59,195 bases of DNA from Candidatus Moranbacteria bacterium GW2011_GWE2_36_40 (lineage in GTDB: Bacteria > Patescibacteriota > Minisyncoccia > Moranbacterales > GWC2-37-73). Positions 33,632 through 39,163 of the stretch are shown one piece after another (position 1 is the stretch's first letter; the number at the start of each line of letters is the position of its first letter). The position numbers and the translations under genes are program-made. Location of the stretch: the NCBI GenBank assembly GCA_000991645.1, contig LBRX01000003.1, positions 1 through 59,195 on the forward strand. The letters are read 5' to 3'. The notes beneath the pieces were generated by a model. The model was given only the letters and a program-made list of their open reading frames with translations, was not told where the DNA came from and made no database searches.

Positions 33632-34701
33632 TTATACACTTTCCGTCGGCCGACGGAAAGTGTATATTTTTTCAATTTGTTTTTGAATATTGTGACCCTT
33701 GCAATGCTTTAGAATTCCCAAATAAGATTGCAGACTTTGATTAAGCTTTTTCTCTGAAATTAAACCCTCTTGGAAATCAGCATATTTCTTACCTAGCTTT
33801 TTAAACATCCTTCTTTTTGTGTTTGTCCGCAAAACTGAGTGATGCGGTCTCAAAACATATCCTAAGAAATCTATGCCTTGATGAAATTTATCAATTGAAA
33901 CCTTGCTTGGATGTAGCTGCAATTTCAATTCTTTTTCCAAAAATTCATCTATCAAATTTAAAATATCATTAAGATATGCCTCATCTTGGTGTATAATAAT
34001 AAAATCATCTGCATAACGAAAATAATTTTTCGCTTTAATTTTTCTTTTTATGAACCAGTCCAATTCATTGAGATATATATTAGCAAATATCTGCGACGTT
34101 ATATTACCAATTGGCACACCTCGTTTTTCTTCAAAAAATTCATCCCGTAAGACCCCCCCACCACGGAAACATCCTCGGAGGAAAAGCTAAGGATAATTTC
34201 TTCGACTAGTCGCATAAATTTCTCATCTGCAATCTTACACGCAATCAATTGCAAAAGTTTTCTTTGATTTATGCTGGCAAAGAATTTTTTGATGTCACAT
34301 TTTAGTGCAAAAACCGGTCGAGTAAAATTTCTACTTTCCCTGCGCAAACATTTTAAAAGATTTTTGACTGCAAGATGTGTTCCCTTGTTTTTTCTTGATG
34401 AATAAGCATGAAAAATGAAATGTGGATCAAAAATATCATTCAGCTTCTCAAACACCAAATGTTGCACGATACGATCTCTTACTGTCGCCTTACTTATAAT
34501 TCTGTGCCTCGGATCATGAATATGAAAAATTTCATATTCTCCATGTTGATATGATTGATTCTCAAGCTCTTCTTGCAAAAGAAAAAGATTATCCTCCAAA
34601 AATCTTTCAAAAATTTGCACGTCTCGCCTGCCGTGTTTTCCATTTCTAAATTCTTTCCAAGATTGAAAAATGTTTTCAAGACTAATCAATTCATCATACA
34701 T
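33632..34701 (-). CDS. DGR-type reverse transcriptase, split into two ORFs by a frameshift at a G7 run
   Basis: ..VPIGNITSQIFANIYLNELD.. and ..YFRYADDFIIIH... The ORFs 34099-34701 and 33632-34117 join as ..DVSVVGGGVLRDEFFEEKRGVPIGN.. if the C7 run at 34153-34159 (plus strand) were C8. Confidence 0.85.
33633..33666. repeat. perfect 34-bp palindrome overlapping the RT2 stop codon
   Basis: tatacactttccgtcgg|ccgacggaaagtgtata. It encodes the last 11 codons of RT2 (..IYTFRRPTESV*). Second copy at 22285-22318. Confidence 0.9.
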
Positions 34702-34707
34702 ATACTT

Positions 34708-35061
34708 ATGAACACTTATGCTAATAATGAGATTCCTGTAATCAAAAAAGTTTATACGCTTTACAAAACATTTTATGAATTTTCCAAATTATTTCCCAAA
34801 AAAGATAAGTATGTGTTAGGAAGCAAGTGCGAAGAATACATTATTGCAACTTTGGAATTGTTGCTTGCTGCCTCAAGCGCTCCCAAAAATGAGAAACAAA
34901 TTTTCATCAAACAAGCTAATATAAAATTCGATGCGCTCAAAATATTTATTCGCATTGCAAATGACATAAGGATGCTTGATACAAAAAAATATATTGCGAT
35001 TCAAAAACAGCTTCAAGAAATCGGACGCATGCTGGGCGGTTGGCAAAAATCATTGAATTAA
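34708..35061 (+). CDS. avd: Avd-like four-helix-bundle accessory protein, divergent from RT2 (6-nt gap)
   Basis: MNTYANNEIPVIKKVYTLYKTFYEFSKLFPKKDKYVLGSKCEEYIIATLELLLAA..IFIRIANDIRMLD..IGRMLGGW... Paralog of 21553-21915. Confidence 0.78.
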   Translation: MNTYANNEIPVIKKVYTLYKTFYEFSKLFPKKDKYVLGSKCEEYIIATLELLLAASSAPKNEKQIFIKQANIKFDALKIFIRIANDIRMLDTKKYIAIQKQLQEIGRMLGGWQKSLN

Positions 35062-35599: not shown

Positions 35600-36508
35600 C
35601 TACCCGATGAAGAGCAAGCCAGACGAGTAGCTGTCGTTCGCATCCGCAAGGTTGTCGGTGCAGTTAAAGTTGAAGTAGCCATCGTTAGCCTTAGCGTAGA
35701 GAGAATACTCGGCGGACTGCCATGAATTTGCAGCGCAGAGATATCCGGGAGTGTTGTAATTCTTTCCCAACACATCAGGATACATTGCCACAGCAGTCAT
35801 GATATCAATTGCGCCAGAAAGCAACAATGATTCCGGGAGCACGGCCATCTGCTGTCTGCCTGCATTAATAGAAAATCCTTGCGTTGGAAAAAATAATATT
35901 CCCACCACCGGACCTTCTGCCATTTTTGCAAGAAGTTTCTCGTGCCCACTACCTTCAATGATTCCTACCTTGCCAGTCAATTCTCCTTTGCGGTAGTTGT
36001 TGAAACTACGATTGGGAAATTGCTGCCTGTAAGATTTTTCCGCCACGACAAGAAAAATTTCTTCCAGACTTTTTCCGTAGTCAGTGACTTCAAGCTTCGG
36101 AAGGCAGATCGGCAACCACACGCCATTGAGCAAATTCAAAAGAAGTGAATCATTTCTCAATTGCTCAAACAACTCTTCGCTTCTTTTCGCAAATTCTTCA
36201 GTAGAAATCAACTGCATACTCTCAGCGTAAAGACTGGTCAAACTATTAATCCGCTCTGCATAGTCAATCTTCGGCTGGACAAGCTTGAAATTCTTGTTCG
36301 GATCGCAAACATTGCCAGTCAGTTCCTTCGGAATACAACGACCATTTTTATCGATGAGTTTTCTGATGACATCTTCAAAAGCCATCTTTTTTTCACCACG
36401 TAAAACTGCATCGAGATTTTCCCTACCACCAAACGCATCAACGATAGCAAGTATTGTTGGACCATCCAAACCCCTCAATTTTTCAAGAACTTCCGCTGTT
36501 GTACTCAT
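35600..36508 (-). CDS. DGR2 variable target protein (302 aa, no signal peptide)
   Basis: The C-terminus ..CAANSWQSAEYSLYAKANDGYFNFNCTDNLADANDSYSSGLLFIG* is VR2. TR2 encodes ..DDNFNFNNTDNLANANDNY.. at the same positions. Confidence 0.85.
   Translation of the reverse strand: MSTTAEVLEKLRGLDGPTILAIVDAFGGRENLDAVLRGEKKMAFEDVIRKLIDKNGRCIPKELTGNVCDPNKNFKLVQPKIDYAERINSLTSLYAESMQLISTEEFAKRSEELFEQLRNDSLLLNLLNGVWLPICLPKLEVTDYGKSLEEIFLVVAEKSYRQQFPNRSFNNYRKGELTGKVGIIEGSGHEKLLAKMAEGPVVGILFFPTQGFSINAGRQQMAVLPESLLLSGAIDIMTAVAMYPDVLGKNYNTPGYLCAANSWQSAEYSLYAKANDGYFNFNCTDNLADANDSYSSGLLFIG
35602..35737 (-). repeat. DGR2 variable repeat (VR2)
   Basis: 3' end of the target ORF, starting at the last base of the TAG stop (35600-35602). 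See TR2. Confidence 0.88.
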
Positions 36509-36599: not shown

Positions 36600-36628
36600 A
36601 TTATACTCCTAAATTGCAAAAATGTCAA
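36600..36628 (-). promoter_or_regulatory. sigma70-type promoter of the DGR2 target (TTGACA-17-TATAAT)
   Basis: Minus strand reads ttgaca tttttgcaatttaggag tataat. Confidence 0.6.
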
Positions 36629-36642
36629 TATTGCGGTAAAAT
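36614..36642 (+). promoter_or_regulatory. candidate plus-strand promoter (TTGCAA-17-TAAAAT) for the thrS leader
   Basis: ttgcaa aaatgtcaatattgcgg taaaat, back to back with the target-2 promoter. Confidence 0.45.
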
Positions 36643-36675
36643 GCAAATAGACCTATAGTAAAAGGACAATTTAAT

Positions 36676-36834
36676 GAGATTGCGAACTACCAACTCGCTC
36701 TAAAAATCTCCGATTAAGCTGCTTACGAACAAGCGCACAAAGTGCCCAAATAATACGGGAAATCGAGTGGAACCACCCTATCGCCAGATAGAGTCTCGAT
36801 ACGAAAACATTAACTTGTTTTCACTGTATTGTTT
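36676..36834 (+). promoter_or_regulatory. T-box-like leader: ACC (Thr) specifier hairpin, T-box antiterminator, competing terminator
   Basis: Hairpin 36676-36710 has loop ACUACCAAC (ACC then A). aaatcgagtggaaccaccc resembles the T-box consensus AANNNGGGUGGUACCGCG. It folds as A1 atcgag/ctcgat, a 7-nt bulge UGGAACC, A2 accctatc/gatagagt and loop gcca (36762-36800). The alternative hairpin cgatacgaaaaca/tgttttc-(act)-gtattg (36797-36831) followed by ttt overlaps the A1 3' strand. Confidence 0.45.
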
Positions 36835-36896
36835 AGGGTTTTTATTTTATTAAAAAGTAACAAAAGTCATTAGCAGTAAGTTTAGTCATTGGCCAT

Positions 36897-37289
36897 ATGT
36901 CATTAGAAAAAACAAAAATAAAAAGTTACACAGATTTAGATGTTTATCAAAGATCATATAAATTATCTATTATTGTATGCACTAAGGTCATTGTAAAACT
37001 TCCATCAGCAGAAAAATTTGGTTTAACTGATCAACTCGGAAGATCATCCAAGGCAATTCCAAGATTAATCGCAGAAGGCTTTGGCAAAAAACATCAGAAG
37101 AGAGGTTTTCACAAATATTTGGATGATGCGATGGCGGAAAATAATGAGTCTATTGTAAGTCTTTGCCAGATACGAGATATTTATGCTAATAATATTAATG
37201 CCAAATCGGTTCAGTTACTAATTGATGAATACGAAATAGTAGGAAAACAAATGTTTAGACTTAAACAAAGCTGGAGTAAATTTTCTTAA
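36897..37289 (+). CDS. orphan four-helix-bundle (Avd/23S-IVS-like) protein
   Basis: ..YTDLDVYQRSYKLSIIV..LTDQLGRSSKAIPRLIAEGFGKK..YLDDAMAENNES.. family signature. Flanked by the inverted repeats gtcattagcagta (36867-36879) and tactgccaatgac (37341-37353). Confidence 0.8.
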   Translation: MSLEKTKIKSYTDLDVYQRSYKLSIIVCTKVIVKLPSAEKFGLTDQLGRSSKAIPRLIAEGFGKKHQKRGFHKYLDDAMAENNESIVSLCQIRDIYANNINAKSVQLLIDEYEIVGKQMFRLKQSWSKFS

Positions 37290-37348
37290 TAAATATAATT
37301 TATTTTGGCAGACCAGTGACTAGAGACTAAAGACTCGTCCTACTGCCA

Positions 37349-39163
37349 ATGACTAATGTAACCAGAAAAAATATGAAATCAGAAATCAACAAACTCGAAC
37401 TAATCCGTCATTCAACTGCACATATCCTAGCAGCCGCTGTTTTAGAAATGTTTCCAGAGGCAAAATTCGGAATTGGACCTGCCGTGGAAAATGGATTTTA
37501 CTATGACTTTGAACTTCCACGCACACTTATCCCTGAAGATTTGCCACTCTTGGAAGAAAAGATGAAAGAAATCATCAAAGCAAACCATGCTTTTGAAAAA
37601 GCTGAGGTTTCAATTGATGATGCCATGGAAAAATTCAAGCAGCTTGATCAGACTTTAAAATTGGAACTCATTGATGATCTTCATAAGGCTGGAAATGAAA
37701 CTGTAACGATTTATAAATCTGGACATTTTGTTGATCTCTGCACCGGACCACACATCGAATCAACTGGCAAAATTCAACACAATGCTTTTGCGCTAACAAA
37801 AATTTCTGGAGCATATTGGAAAGCAGACGCCACCAAGCAACAACTGCAAAGAATTTACGGAGTGGTGTTTGAAAATAAAGAAGGACTCAAAAACTATTTT
37901 CATCTCGTTGATGAGGCTGCCAAAAGAGATCATCGCAAGCTTGGGAAAGAATTGGATCTGTTTTGCTTTTCAGATTTGGTTGGACCGGGACTTCCCCTCT
38001 TCACACCAAACGGAACAATCATCAAGGATGAGTTGCAAAAACATATTGAAAAAGTTTGCCGAGGATATGGTTTTCAAAAAGTTTCAACTCCTCATCTTGC
38101 TAAAATTGATTTATATGAAAAATCAGGACATGCTCAAAAATTTGGAGATGAACTTTTCCAAGTAGCATCACATTACAAACAAAATTATGTGATGAAGCCA
38201 GTGCAATGTCCTCATCAAACTCAAATTTTTGCTTCCAAAGCTCGCTCCTATCGAGACCTTCCTATTCGCTATATGGAAAGTGAAAAACAATATCGCGATG
38301 AAAAACCAGGAGAAATTGGAGGTCTTCAACGCGTAATTGCAATCACGGTTGAAGACGGTCACAGTTTTTGCACCATTGATCAAGTGAAGCAAGAAGTGAA
38401 AAACATGATAGAAATTATCCAAAATTTTTATACATCACTTGGCATGTGGGAAAACCACAGTGTTTCACTTTCAGTACGAGATTACGCACATCCAGAAAAA
38501 TACATTGGCGAAACTACTGATTGGGATGTCTGCGAGAAAATGCTGCAAGATATTTCAGATGAGATGGGATTAAATGCGATCAAACACGAGGGAGAAGCTG
38601 CACTTTATGGACCAAAACTTGATTTCATGTTTCGCGATTCTCTTGGCAAAGAAATTCAAATTCCAACAGTGCAATTGGATTTTGCTACTCCAAAGAGATT
38701 TGAGTTGGAATATACCAATAACGAAGGAGGAAAATCCTCTCCTGTTATGGTGCATCGAGCAATTTTAGGATCATATGAAAGATTTATGATGCTCCTTATT
38801 GAACACTTTGCCGGAGCCTTTCCTCTTTGGCTCTCCCCTGTTCAAGTTGCCATTTTACCAATTTCTGAAAAATTTGCAGACTACGCTGAAGAAGTTAAAA
38901 ACAAATTATCAGAAAATGATATCCGCGTAGAACTTAGCGACAAAGCTGAATCACTTGGAAAAAGAATTTCTGAAGCAGAAAAAATGAAAACTCCATACAT
39001 CATTGTGGTTGGAGAAAAAGAAGTTAATGATAAAACAGTAGCCATCAGAACTCGCGGAATAAAGGAGCCCGCCTCCACAGAGCTTCGTCGAGGCGAGCAA
39101 CAAACAATGCCAATTGACGAATTTGTTAATAAGATTTCTTTCGAAATAAAAAACAAAATCTAA
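37349..39163 (+). CDS. thrS: threonine--tRNA ligase (no TGS domain; start could be Met-9 at 37373)
   Basis: ..RHSTAHILAAAV.. editing-domain-type motif, class II core (..FRDE.., ..GLQRV..), and a C-terminal anticodon-binding domain. In-frame GC hairpin insertion at 39067-39098. Confidence 0.93.
   Translation: MTNVTRKNMKSEINKLELIRHSTAHILAAAVLEMFPEAKFGIGPAVENGFYYDFELPRTLIPEDLPLLEEKMKEIIKANHAFEKAEVSIDDAMEKFKQLDQTLKLELIDDLHKAGNETVTIYKSGHFVDLCTGPHIESTGKIQHNAFALTKISGAYWKADATKQQLQRIYGVVFENKEGLKNYFHLVDEAAKRDHRKLGKELDLFCFSDLVGPGLPLFTPNGTIIKDELQKHIEKVCRGYGFQKVSTPHLAKIDLYEKSGHAQKFGDELFQVASHYKQNYVMKPVQCPHQTQIFASKARSYRDLPIRYMESEKQYRDEKPGEIGGLQRVIAITVEDGHSFCTIDQVKQEVKNMIEIIQNFYTSLGMWENHSVSLSVRDYAHPEKYIGETTDWDVCEKMLQDISDEMGLNAIKHEGEAALYGPKLDFMFRDSLGKEIQIPTVQLDFATPKRFELEYTNNEGGKSSPVMVHRAILGSYERFMMLLIEHFAGAFPLWLSPVQVAILPISEKFADYAEEVKNKLSENDIRVELSDKAESLGKRISEAEKMKTPYIIVVGEKEVNDKTVAIRTRGIKEPASTELRRGEQQTMPIDEFVNKISFEIKNKI

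What the first reader, a model, noticed from the sequence alone, without database searches (positions are those of the whole stretch)
36614..37353. T-box-like Thr leader separated from thrS by an inverted-repeat-flanked four-helix-bundle cassette
Downstream of a plus-strand TTGCAA-17-TAAAAT promoter there are three elements:
1. A hairpin, gagat-t-gcga[ACUACCAAC]tcgc-tctaaaa-atctc (36676-36710), presents ACC followed by A.
2. The sequence aaatcgagtggaaccaccc resembles the T-box consensus AANNNGGGUGGUACCGCG. It folds into the canonical antiterminator: 6-bp A1, 7-nt bulge UGGAACC, 8-bp A2 and a tetraloop (36762-36800).
3. A mutually exclusive hairpin (36797-36831) uses 4 nt of the A1 3' strand and is followed by UUU..UUUUUAUUUU.

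The first ORF downstream is not thrS. It is a four-helix-bundle gene (36897-37289) bracketed by gtcattagcagta (36867-36879) and tactgccaatgac (37341-37353), which match as reverse complements at 12 of 13 positions. The right arm overlaps the annotated thrS ATG.

This looks like an IVS-type cassette inserted into a tRNA-sensing leader, which would put the cassette gene under Thr-tRNA control. The specifier sits in a terminal loop rather than an internal loop, so this is atypical.
Basis: partly seen in the sequence, partly recalled or inferred. Interest (0 to 1): 0.62.

Follow-up and report, generated by a model that had tools for sequence, protein, structure and literature searches.

The report
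Compact threonine T-box with inserted hairpin cassette
The leader of the threonyl-tRNA synthetase gene in this ultra-small groundwater bacterium is a real, stripped-down tRNA-sensing "T-box" switch that standard RNA models miss, and a small hairpin-flanked gene of unknown function has been inserted between the switch and the gene it controls.

Summary

**The leader.** Window 36668-36849 belongs to a compact T-box family.
- It lies upstream of thrS in Moranbacteria and matches in 36 of 401 Patescibacteria genomes sampled.
- All helices covary.
- The 9-nt terminal loop always shows a Thr codon plus a purine.
- The bulge is UGGAACC in 58 of 58 leaders, and all three tRNA-Thr genes have U73.
- Rfam RF00230 finds nothing here because Stem I is ultrashort.

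**Corrections.**
- The conserved, most stable terminator is a long-range helix (36744-36758 with 36824-36839, followed by a U-tract). It leaves A1/A2 folded and destroys Stem III instead.

**The cassette.** The four-helix-bundle gene (PF05635/TIGR02436) sits in the loop of a 33-bp stem.
- It is absent from this site in all relatives' thrS loci examined.
- ORF-less copies of the same hairpin lie inside other operons of this genome.
- Four of the seven close homologues of the gene directly abut thrS.

Control of the cassette by tRNA-Thr is inferred, not shown.

The parts
36632..36660 (+). Probable leader promoter, TTGCGG-17-TATAGT. The transcript would start about 36667.
Evidence: The -35 TTGnnn and -10 TAnAnT boxes keep the same spacing and the same distance from Stem I in about 20 relatives.
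36676..36710 (+). Ultrashort Stem I. It consists of a basal helix (36676-80 with 36706-10) and a specifier hairpin (36682-85 with 36695-98). The 9-nt loop ACUACCAAC carries the specifier ACC (36689-91) and the following purine A36692.
   Evidence: In A1 (23 sequences) the basal helix is 99% paired and the hairpin stem 98% paired. In A1, 4 of 5 basal-helix pairs and all 4 specifier-stem pairs change on both sides; in A3 (58 sequences) all pairs of both helices do. Across the 58 leaders that matched model R1 (selected by the model; 47 have a cleanly aligned hairpin), nearly all (about 45) cleanly aligned loops carry ACC, ACU, ACA or ACG followed by a purine.
36718..36736 (+). P2 hairpin (GC-U-GCUU / AAGC-GC) with an ACGAAC loop. 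It occupies the position of the Stem II / IIA-B region.
   Evidence: 95% paired, with changes on both sides at 4 of 6 pairs in A1 and at all 6 pairs in A3. Its role is not known.
36740..36761 (+). Discriminator 5' half: purine string AAGUG, Stem III (CCC 36745-47 with GGG 36757-59, 9-nt loop), then AA.
   Evidence: [quoted passage not shown] Stem III covaries across the phylum, for example CG 33, UA 10, AU 5, GC 3 at one pair.
36762..36800 (+). T-box hairpin: A1 (36762-67 with 36795-800), bulge UGGAACC (36768-74), A2 (36775-94).
   Evidence: A1 is 97% paired and A2 90% paired, both with many compensatory changes. The bulge is invariant in all 58 leaders matched by model R1, a set selected with that model. 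A36771 is complementary to U73 of all three tRNA-Thr genes.
36803..36822 (+). Optional small hairpin P5 (GAAAACA / UGUUUUC).
   Evidence: It covaries where present and is absent in L025, L026, L028 and L048.
36824..36849 (+). 3' strand of the long-range terminator helix (36824-36839, pairing with 36744-36758) and the U-tract UUUUUAUUUUA.
   Evidence: The helix is present in the minimum-free-energy fold of the window and of all 22 leaders of its Moranbacteria clade, always followed by a U-rich tract. In the window the OFF state is -33.6 and the ON state -21.0 kcal/mol. L021 has compensatory AGCA/UGCU in place of AAAU/GUUU.
36857..36895 (+). Left arm of the cassette stem.
   Evidence: 33 pairs with 37306-37362, at -35.8 kcal/mol. 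30 of them are kept in the minimum-free-energy fold of the whole 523-nt cassette RNA. The same termini occur in ORF-less copies and in the cassettes of relatives.
36897..37289 (+). Four-helix-bundle protein gene, 130 aa (the '23S rRNA intervening-sequence protein' family).
   Evidence: PF05635 at 62.6 bits (cut-off 33.8). TIGR02436 at 54.8 bits (cut-off 24). Weak match to PDB 2GSC.
37306..37362 (+). Right arm of the cassette stem. It contains the in-frame ATG at 37349.
   Evidence: GCCAATGAC is part of the repeat consensus in the C7 copies.
37373..39163 (+). thrS (threonyl-tRNA synthetase), with the probable true start at 37373.
   Evidence: Pfam tRNA_SAD, tRNA-synt_2b and HGTP_anticodon. Relatives align from residues 6-9 and begin MK..E.NKLE.

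Best explanation
Window 36668-36849 is a functional, compact, Thr-specific T-box riboswitch that controls transcription read-through into thrS.

**How it reads tRNA (inferred).** Uncharged tRNA-Thr(GGU) pairs its anticodon with ACC, which is displayed in the terminal loop of an ultrashort Stem I. Its 3'-UCCA end pairs with UGGA in the T-box bulge. This stabilises the discriminator fold, which is made of the purine string AAGUG, the 3-bp Stem III, A1 and A2.

**How it switches off (inferred).** Without that stabilisation, the strand 36824-36839 invades Stem III. It forms a 15-pair long-range helix with 36744-36758, followed directly by UUUUUAUUUU. This is an intrinsic terminator that keeps the A1/A2 hairpin folded in its loop. 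So in this clade the off-switch competes with Stem III rather than with the 3' strands of A1 and A2.

**The cassette.** In this lineage only, a palindromic cassette of about 505 bp (36857-37362) was inserted between the terminator and the thrS start. It is a 33-bp stem with a four-helix-bundle gene in its loop. Read-through transcripts should therefore carry the cassette gene followed by thrS, which would put both under tRNA-Thr control. The long stem is a plausible RNase III substrate.

**Shown:** homology, covariation, codon and discriminator matching, the insertion itself, and the repeat family.
**Inferred:** tRNA binding, the switching mechanism, co-transcription and RNA processing.
For: - **Conservation.** The leader is conserved by blastn directly upstream of thrS in about 25 relatives.
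- **Own model.** Covariance model R1, built on the core, finds exactly one site in this genome at 150.6 bits. It finds one site per genome in 36 of 401 genomes sampled across the phylum. 28 of the 30 best loci lie upstream of thrS on the same strand.
- **Covariation.** 91.4% of cells are paired against 36-47% in slid controls, and 31 of 32 pairs change on both sides.
- **Specifier.** Nearly all cleanly aligned loops (about 45 of 47, among 58 model-selected leaders) carry one of the four Thr codons followed by a purine. UGGAACC is invariant in the model-selected set.
- **tRNA match.** All three tRNA-Thr genes have U73.
- **Rfam.** The T-box model hits the homologous leaders of L024, L023 and L031 at E 1e-6 to 5e-3.
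- **Discriminator motif.** The RRRxG-Stem III-AA motif is present. Stem III is required for binding of the tRNA 3' end, according to PMC7583486.
- **Long-range terminator.** It is in the minimum-free-energy fold of the window and of all 22 leaders of its clade, and in 31 of 58 leaders phylum-wide. It is 12.6 kcal/mol more stable than the ON fold.
- **Cassette.** It is absent between leader and thrS in all relatives' thrS loci examined, and some relatives have only about 35-45 nt between terminator and start codon. Cassette-less relatives co-occur in the source samples. The same T-box-cassette-thrS layout occurs at about 93% and 88% identity in landfill and permafrost assemblies.
- **RNase III.** The enzyme is encoded in this genome.
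- **Signals inside the cassette.** The consensus scan found no terminator-like site in the region and only a weak 9-of-12 promoter-like match inside the ORF.
Against: - There is no experimental or RNA-seq evidence. Only DNA runs hold this sequence.
- Rfam RF00230 does not match the window at all.
- The long-range helix is built largely from conserved A-U pairs. In the plain MAFFT alignment it has few changes on both sides and 77.7% of cells paired.
- Because the terminator leaves A1/A2 intact, the coupling to tRNA binding rests on the published role of Stem III, not on a direct strand competition shown here.
- The 3-bp Stem III is weak (-3.0 kcal/mol).
- A promoter inside the cassette cannot be excluded with a sigma-70 consensus scan alone.
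Confidence: 0.8

Rival explanations
1. The T-box is wired canonically: the terminator is the hairpin 36797-36831 together with P5, which takes 4 nt of the A1 3' strand.
For: - The hairpin can be drawn.
- Its six outer pairs are 75.9% paired in the clade alignment, and one pair shows CG/UA exchange.
- Several other members of the family (21 of 58) do use terminators that invade A1 and A2.
Against: - That state scores -18.6 kcal/mol. It is less stable than the antiterminator state (-21.0) and far less stable than the long-range state (-33.6).
- It is followed by UUUAGGG before the U-run.
- Four clade members lack P5 and cannot form it, yet they keep the long-range helix.
- It never appears in the minimum-free-energy fold of the clade.
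Confidence: 0.12
2. The insertion has uncoupled thrS from the T-box. The cassette would carry its own promoter or a processing-protected 5' end. The T-box would then gate only the four-helix-bundle gene, or be a relic.
For: - ORF-less copies of the same hairpin sit just upstream of atpF, atpC, dnaB and a PFOR subunit. They could therefore carry expression signals.
- A TTGGCA box lies at 37305-10.
Against: - No promoter-like site was found in 37290-37372.
- The ORF-less copies lie inside operons between co-directional genes. That fits a transcribed hairpin, not a promoter.
- The window's T-box keeps every conserved feature and scores highest against the family model, although it is itself one of the sequences the model was built from.
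- The layout, together with the 3' half of the T-box (from Stem III on), is kept at 88% identity in the permafrost contig; the landfill contig (about 93%) begins only in the terminator 3' strand.
Confidence: 0.12
3. The leader is not a tRNA sensor. It would be a ThrRS-binding operator of the E. coli thrS type, or a leader-peptide attenuator. A mini-ORF at 36675-36704 reads MRLRTTNSL and contains two Thr codons.
For: - The mini-ORF exists and contains ACU ACC.
- E. coli thrS is autoregulated through anticodon-arm mimics (my own knowledge).
Against: - The loop shows the codon, not the anticodon.
- The AUG is not conserved: it is AUA in L008, AUU in L029 and GUG in L026 and L024.
- The stop and the ORF length are not conserved.
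- The invariant UGGAACC bulge, the purine string and helix covariation are specific T-box features.
Confidence: 0.03

Closest known systems
Class I transcriptional T-box leaders (Rfam RF00230; for example Bacillus subtilis thrS, tyrS, glyQS)
   Same: - A specifier codon followed by a purine.
- The UGGN bulge matched to the tRNA discriminator base.
- A1 and A2 helices.
- The RRRxG-Stem III-AA discriminator motif.
- An intrinsic terminator with a U-tract.
- Control of an aminoacyl-tRNA synthetase gene.
   Different: - There is no long Stem I, AG bulge, distal loop or elbow platform.
- The specifier sits in a terminal 7-9-nt loop, not an internal loop.
- No K-turn is evident.
- A single small hairpin replaces Stem II and the IIA/B pseudoknot.
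- In this clade the terminator pairs with the Stem III region and leaves A1/A2 folded.
- The Rfam score is zero here and 30.7-45 bits in three relatives, against a 93-bit cut-off.
Actinobacterial ileS T-boxes with intermediate or 'ultrashort' Stem I (Sherwood, Grundy and Henkin 2015, as summarised in PMC7583486 and PMC12990946)
   Same: Stem I is truncated and the tRNA-elbow contact is lost. tRNA recognition relies on the anticodon and NCCA contacts.
   Different: - Those act on translation by sequestering the Shine-Dalgarno sequence. They depend on a Stem II S-turn and the IIA/B pseudoknot.
- This one ends in an intrinsic terminator, is Thr-specific and is found in Patescibacteria.
[quoted passage not shown]
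- I could not read the 2015 paper, so I do not know whether its ultrashort class also shows the codon in a terminal loop.
23S rRNA intervening sequences carrying a four-helix-bundle ORF (PF05635 / TIGR02436 family)
   Same: The same protein family. The ORF sits in the loop of a long imperfect stem, which is the classic RNase III substrate layout. ORF-less versions of the same hairpin also exist.
   Different: It is not in rRNA. It lies in an mRNA 5' leader, or in relatives directly after a stop codon. Excision was not tested.
REP / BIME / MITE-like intercistronic palindromic elements
   Same: Dispersed imperfect palindromes of about 115 nt with shared termini. They lie between co-directional genes of operons (atpE/atpF, atpD/atpC, PFOR subunits).
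   Different: One copy carries a protein gene in its loop. No transposase, target-site duplication or mobility mechanism was identified.

Membership tests
T-box riboswitch | A specifier codon that matches the amino acid of the regulated gene, followed by a purine | tested here: met
   ACC-A lies at 36689-92 upstream of thrS. Homologues show ACC, ACU, ACA or ACG followed by a purine.
T-box riboswitch | A 7-nt bulge UGGNACC, with N complementary to the tRNA discriminator base | tested here: met
   UGGAACC lies at 36768-74. tRNA-Thr GGU, UGU and CGU all have U73. The bulge is invariant in all 58 leaders matched by model R1.
T-box riboswitch | Antiterminator helices A1 and A2 flanking the bulge | tested here: met
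   A1 is 96.8% paired and A2 89.7% paired. 13 of 14 pairs change on both sides.
T-box riboswitch | Discriminator motif 5'-RRRxG-Stem III-AA-3' | tested here: met
   AAGUG-CCC(9 nt)GGG-AA lies at 36740-61. Stem III covaries. The motif is taken from PMC7583486.
T-box riboswitch | A long Stem I with AG bulge and distal loop that docks the tRNA elbow | tested here: not met
   Stem I is 35 nt and ends in the specifier loop. In the Rfam alignment of L024, 76 model positions are replaced by 9 nt.
T-box riboswitch | A K-turn (GA motif) at the base of Stem I | tested here: not met
   G36676 and A36677 form conserved Watson-Crick pairs with C36710 and U36709. No GA follows on the 3' strand. This was checked by inspection only.
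T-box riboswitch | Stem II S-turn and Stem IIA/B pseudoknot with F-box | tested here: inconclusive
T-box riboswitch | A terminator whose 5' strand is the 3' half of A1/A2 | tested here: not met
   The terminator's 5' strand is 36744-58, which is the Stem III region. A1 stays fully paired (6 of 6) in the OFF fold of the window and of 21 of the 22 clade leaders (5 of 6 in L048).
T-box riboswitch | A score above the Rfam RF00230 gathering threshold (93 bits) | tested here: not met
   No hit at E<=10 in the window. Relatives score 30.7-45 bits.
T-box riboswitch | tRNA-dependent read-through | not testable with these tools
   This needs in vitro transcription or reporter assays.
Four-helix-bundle / 23S rRNA IVS protein (PF05635, TIGR02436) | An HMM score above the curated cut-offs | tested here: met
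   62.6 bits against a cut-off of 33.8. 54.8 bits against a cut-off of 24.
23S rRNA intervening sequence | Location inside a 23S rRNA helix and excision by RNase III | tested here: not met
   It lies in the thrS leader. Rfam finds no rRNA in the window. Excision is not testable here. RNase III is encoded.

The most novel reading that the evidence does not exclude
The hairpin cassette that carries the four-helix-bundle gene may be a mobile, IVS-like element that homes to the flanks of thrS. It would thereby ride the starvation-induced T-box read-through. Its protein might have a function tied to ThrRS, tRNA-Thr or processing of that mRNA.

Separately, the leaders of this clade may define a T-box class whose off-switch unzips Stem III, the discriminator latch, while the T-box hairpin itself stays folded in both states.
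Probability: 0.12. Interest if true: 0.8.

Novelty: new variant of a known kind. Interest (0 to 1): 0.66.

Why it matters
**T-box biology.** The reviews I read say that transcriptional T-boxes generally require a long Stem I with a tRNA-elbow platform, and that the terminator competes with the A1/A2 3' strands. This family does three things differently:
- It decodes tRNA-Thr with a roughly 35-nt Stem I and a hairpin-loop codon.
- It still ends in an intrinsic terminator.
- In this clade the terminator is set against Stem III.

It would give a naturally minimal T-box for structural and kinetic work. It would also show that Rfam-based surveys under-count T-boxes in Patescibacteria, a phylum usually regarded as poor in riboswitches.

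**The cassette.** It gives a rare handle on the four-helix-bundle "IVS protein" family, whose function is unknown. This is a copy outside rRNA, in a defined operon, with ORF-less sister hairpins and a non-random link to thrS.

Tried and rejected
- **Rfam.** At gathering threshold and at E<=10 there is no T-box hit in the window. That alone would have wrongly refuted the finding.
- **Other copies in this genome.** R1 finds only the thrS leader. The one Rfam-type T-box elsewhere (C39, 31.9 bits) is a different, longer form.
- **K-turn.** I looked for a K-turn at the base of Stem I and rejected it, because the GA is Watson-Crick paired.
- **Leader-peptide attenuation.** The mini-ORF MRLRTTNSL is rejected because its start codon and length are not conserved.
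- **RNA-seq.** Only DNA runs hold the sequence, so transcript ends and processing could not be examined.
- **Literature.**
  - No paper in the held library mentions T-box together with Candidate Phyla Radiation or Patescibacteria.
  - Sherwood et al. 2015 and 2018 are not held. The comparison with the actinobacterial ultrashort class therefore rests on reviews.
- **Target-site duplication.** None is evident at the cassette ends.
- **Wider search for the cassette gene.** A search over 400 genomes of the class found only three more homologues, at 51-55% identity. None is next to thrS.
Full report
**Context.** The window is contig C3 of a 1.0-Mb, 36% G+C genome that is 94.6% complete. Its closest relatives are Candidatus Moranbacteria (Moraniibacteriota) in the Parcubacteria/CPR group.

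The region contains, in order:
- a divergent minus-strand gene at 35600-36508;
- a 390-nt intergenic leader;
- a 130-aa ORF at 36897-37289;
- thrS, called from 37349 to 39163.

**Observation.**
- RNAfold of 36645-36860 recovers the A1 / 7-nt bulge / A2 hairpin unprompted (z = -3.2).
- The ORF is a PF05635 / TIGR02436 four-helix-bundle protein.
- The inverted repeat is much longer than reported. There are 33 pairs between 36857-36895 and 37306-37362, at -35.8 kcal/mol. 30 of them survive in the minimum-free-energy fold of the full cassette RNA.

**Is it a T-box?** Rfam RF00230 gives nothing in the window, even at E<=10. Comparative evidence nevertheless says yes.

1. *Conservation.* The leader is conserved by blastn immediately upstream of thrS in about 25 relatives. 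GAGUGGAACC is invariant there and recurs before thrS in Saccharibacteria.
2. *Rfam in relatives.* Three relatives whose T-box sequence is closer to consensus (GGGUGGAACCGCG) are hit at 45, 38 and 30.7 bits (E 1e-6 to 5e-3). In the alignment shown for L024, 76 Stem I model positions are replaced by 9 nt.
3. *Own covariance model.* Model R1 was built on 36668-36804 and 23 homologues.
   - It finds one site in this genome, at 150.6 bits.
   - It finds one site per genome in 36 of 401 genomes drawn evenly from the phylum.
   - 28 of the 30 best loci lie upstream of thrS on the same strand. One lies before a GlyRS gene.
4. *Covariation.* On the 58-sequence model alignment, 91.4% of cells are standard pairs, against 36-47% when partners are slid. 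31 of 32 pairs change on both sides. The alignment is fitted to the model. However, the independent MAFFT alignment gives 95-99% pairing with GC/AU exchanges for Stem I, the specifier stem and P2.
5. *Specifier.* Nearly all cleanly aligned 9-nt loops (about 45 of 47 among the 58 model-selected leaders) carry ACC, ACU, ACA or ACG followed by a purine. The variation is synonymous for threonine. The bulge is UGGAACC in 58 of 58, a set selected with the model.
6. *tRNA match.* The three tRNA-Thr genes all end ...GGC-U, so the discriminator is U73, which is complementary to A36771.
7. *Discriminator motif.* The sequence AAGUG-CCC...GGG-AA (36740-61) matches the 5'-RRRxG-Stem III-AA-3' purine-string motif. 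PMC7583486 describes that motif as integral to the discriminator.

I conclude that this is a genuine Thr T-box.

**How it differs from textbook T-boxes.**
- Stem I is only 35 nt: a 5-bp basal helix, a 4-bp hairpin with the codon in its terminal loop, and a variable 3' linker. The linker is 7 nt here and up to about 45 nt in L025, L028 and L021.
- There is no distal platform.
- G36676 and A36677 are Watson-Crick paired, so no K-turn is evident.
- A single covarying hairpin (36718-36, ACGAAC loop) stands where Stem II and IIA/B would be.

**Promoter.** The boxes that keep position and spacing in relatives are TTGCGG (36632-37)-17-TATAGT (36655-60). They place the start about 8 nt before Stem I. 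A perfect TTGACA-17-TATAAT on the minus strand (36628-36600) serves the divergent gene.

**Terminator.** In the window and in all 22 leaders of its clade, the minimum-free-energy fold of the expression platform is a long-range helix between the Stem III region and the strand just before the U-tract. In the window that is 36744-58 pairing with 36824-39, followed by UUUUUAUUUU. The helix encloses an intact A1/A2 hairpin and, where present, the small hairpin P5.

Energies in the window:

| State | kcal/mol |
|---|---|
| ON fold (Stem III + A1/A2 + P5) | -21.0 |
| Long-range OFF fold | -33.6 |

- L021 carries compensatory AGCA/UGCU where the window has AAAU/GUUU.
- In the MAFFT alignment the long-range helix is 77.7% paired, mostly through conserved A-U pairs. 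The preference for the long-range helix therefore rests mainly on energy, generality and adjacency to the U-tract.
- Across the 58 leaders, 31 are of this type and 21 use a canonical terminator that invades A1/A2. These calls are based on minimum-free-energy folds.

*Mechanistic inference.* Stem III and its purine string are indispensable for binding the tRNA 3' end (PMC7583486). The tRNA-bound discriminator and the long-range helix are therefore mutually exclusive, even though A1/A2 is not unzipped.

**The cassette.**
- *Insertion.* None of the relatives' thrS loci examined has the four-helix-bundle gene between leader and thrS. In the relatives with the shortest spacing (L008, L011, L020, L025, L026, L048, L021), about 35-45 nt separate the terminator from the ATG. 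Joining the window's flanks gives a comparable spacer.
- *Other assemblies.* A related, cassette-less form co-occurs in the source groundwater assemblies. The same cassette-thrS layout occurs at about 93% identity in landfill contigs (laid from 36824, in the terminator's 3' strand) and the T-box-cassette-thrS layout at 88% in permafrost contigs (laid from 36745, the start of Stem III). So the layout is inherited and is not an assembly artefact.
- *thrS start.* The ATG at 37349 lies within the repeat consensus GCCAATGAC. Homologues begin at the ATG at 37373.
- *ORF-less copies.* Four hairpins of about 115 nt with the same termini (GTAACA...TGTTAC) lie in this genome: between atpE and atpF, between atpD and atpC, before dnaB, and between PFOR subunits. 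These positions are inside operons.
- *Link to thrS.*
  - Close homologues of the gene (72-78% identity) occur in only 6 of the other 60 related genomes searched.
  - Counting the window and the more distant G023 copy (54-56% identity), 4 of the 7 cassettes directly abut thrS. The window's copy is upstream. In G032, G027 and G035 the cassette begins 0-1 nt after the thrS stop codon.
  - A fifth copy precedes gatB.
- *Sign of mobility.* Identity of the cassette protein stays at about 72-78% while ThrS identity ranges from 47% to 85%. That argues for mobility rather than simple vertical descent.
- *Expression signals.* I found no terminator-like site in the region and only a weak 9-of-12 promoter-like match inside the ORF. 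RNase III is encoded. Co-transcription under T-box control and stem processing are reasonable but untested.

**Earlier notes of this scan.** These describe similar compact thrS T-boxes in other CPR genomes, and in one Moranbacteria genome a non-textbook off-switch. I treated them as leads.

**Verdict.**
- The finding is real.
- The T-box interpretation is correct, but the locus belongs to a widespread, apparently undescribed compact variant rather than being a local oddity.
- The promoter and terminator assignments need correcting.
- The IVS-type cassette insertion is confirmed and extended.

Noticed in passing
G000 contig C39:3077-3319 (-), = L002: This is the only Rfam-type T-box hit in the genome (31.9 bits, bulge UGGC, longer Stem I). 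It ends in a terminator-like hairpin. A strong Shine-Dalgarno sequence and a roughly 40-aa CxxC...CxxC zinc-ribbon ORF follow, not an aminoacyl-tRNA synthetase gene.
   Followed up: partly
G000 C7:305-430, C7:6330-6455, C33:2262-2385, C62:2868-2990: ORF-less hairpin elements of about 115 nt with the same termini as the cassette arms. They sit between co-directional genes: atpE/atpF, atpD/atpC, before dnaB, and between PFOR subunits.
   Followed up: partly
L094 (G032), L095 (G027), L098 (G035): In three genomes from two families, the homologous four-helix-bundle cassette starts 0-1 nt after the thrS stop codon. In G037 (L097) it directly precedes gatB.
   Followed up: partly
thrS leaders of relatives (L004, L005, L007, L009, L014, L016, L019, L022, L028 and others): The spacer between the T-box terminator and the thrS start is a hot spot for unrelated AT-rich palindromic inserts of 100-200 nt. 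In more distant genomes whole genes sit there, for example metK in L084 and hypothetical genes in L068, L074 and L083.
   Followed up: partly
L078 (G332:C4): The same compact T-box model matches upstream of a glycyl-tRNA synthetase gene, so the family is not limited to thrS.
   Followed up: no
window 36600-36628 (-): A perfect TTGACA-17-TATAAT promoter points at the divergent gene 35600-36508. It partly overlaps the leader's promoter region and is conserved in several relatives.
   Followed up: no
window 36675-36704: The mini-ORF AUG AGA UUG CGA ACU ACC AAC UCG CUC UAA (MRLRTTNSL) overlaps Stem I and reads the specifier ACC in frame. Its start codon and length are not conserved.
   Followed up: yes
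window 34099-35061: A reverse-transcriptase fragment (PF00078) and a bAvd-like four-helix-bundle gene (PF22296) lie 2 kb upstream. bAvd is distantly related to the cassette protein family.
   Followed up: no
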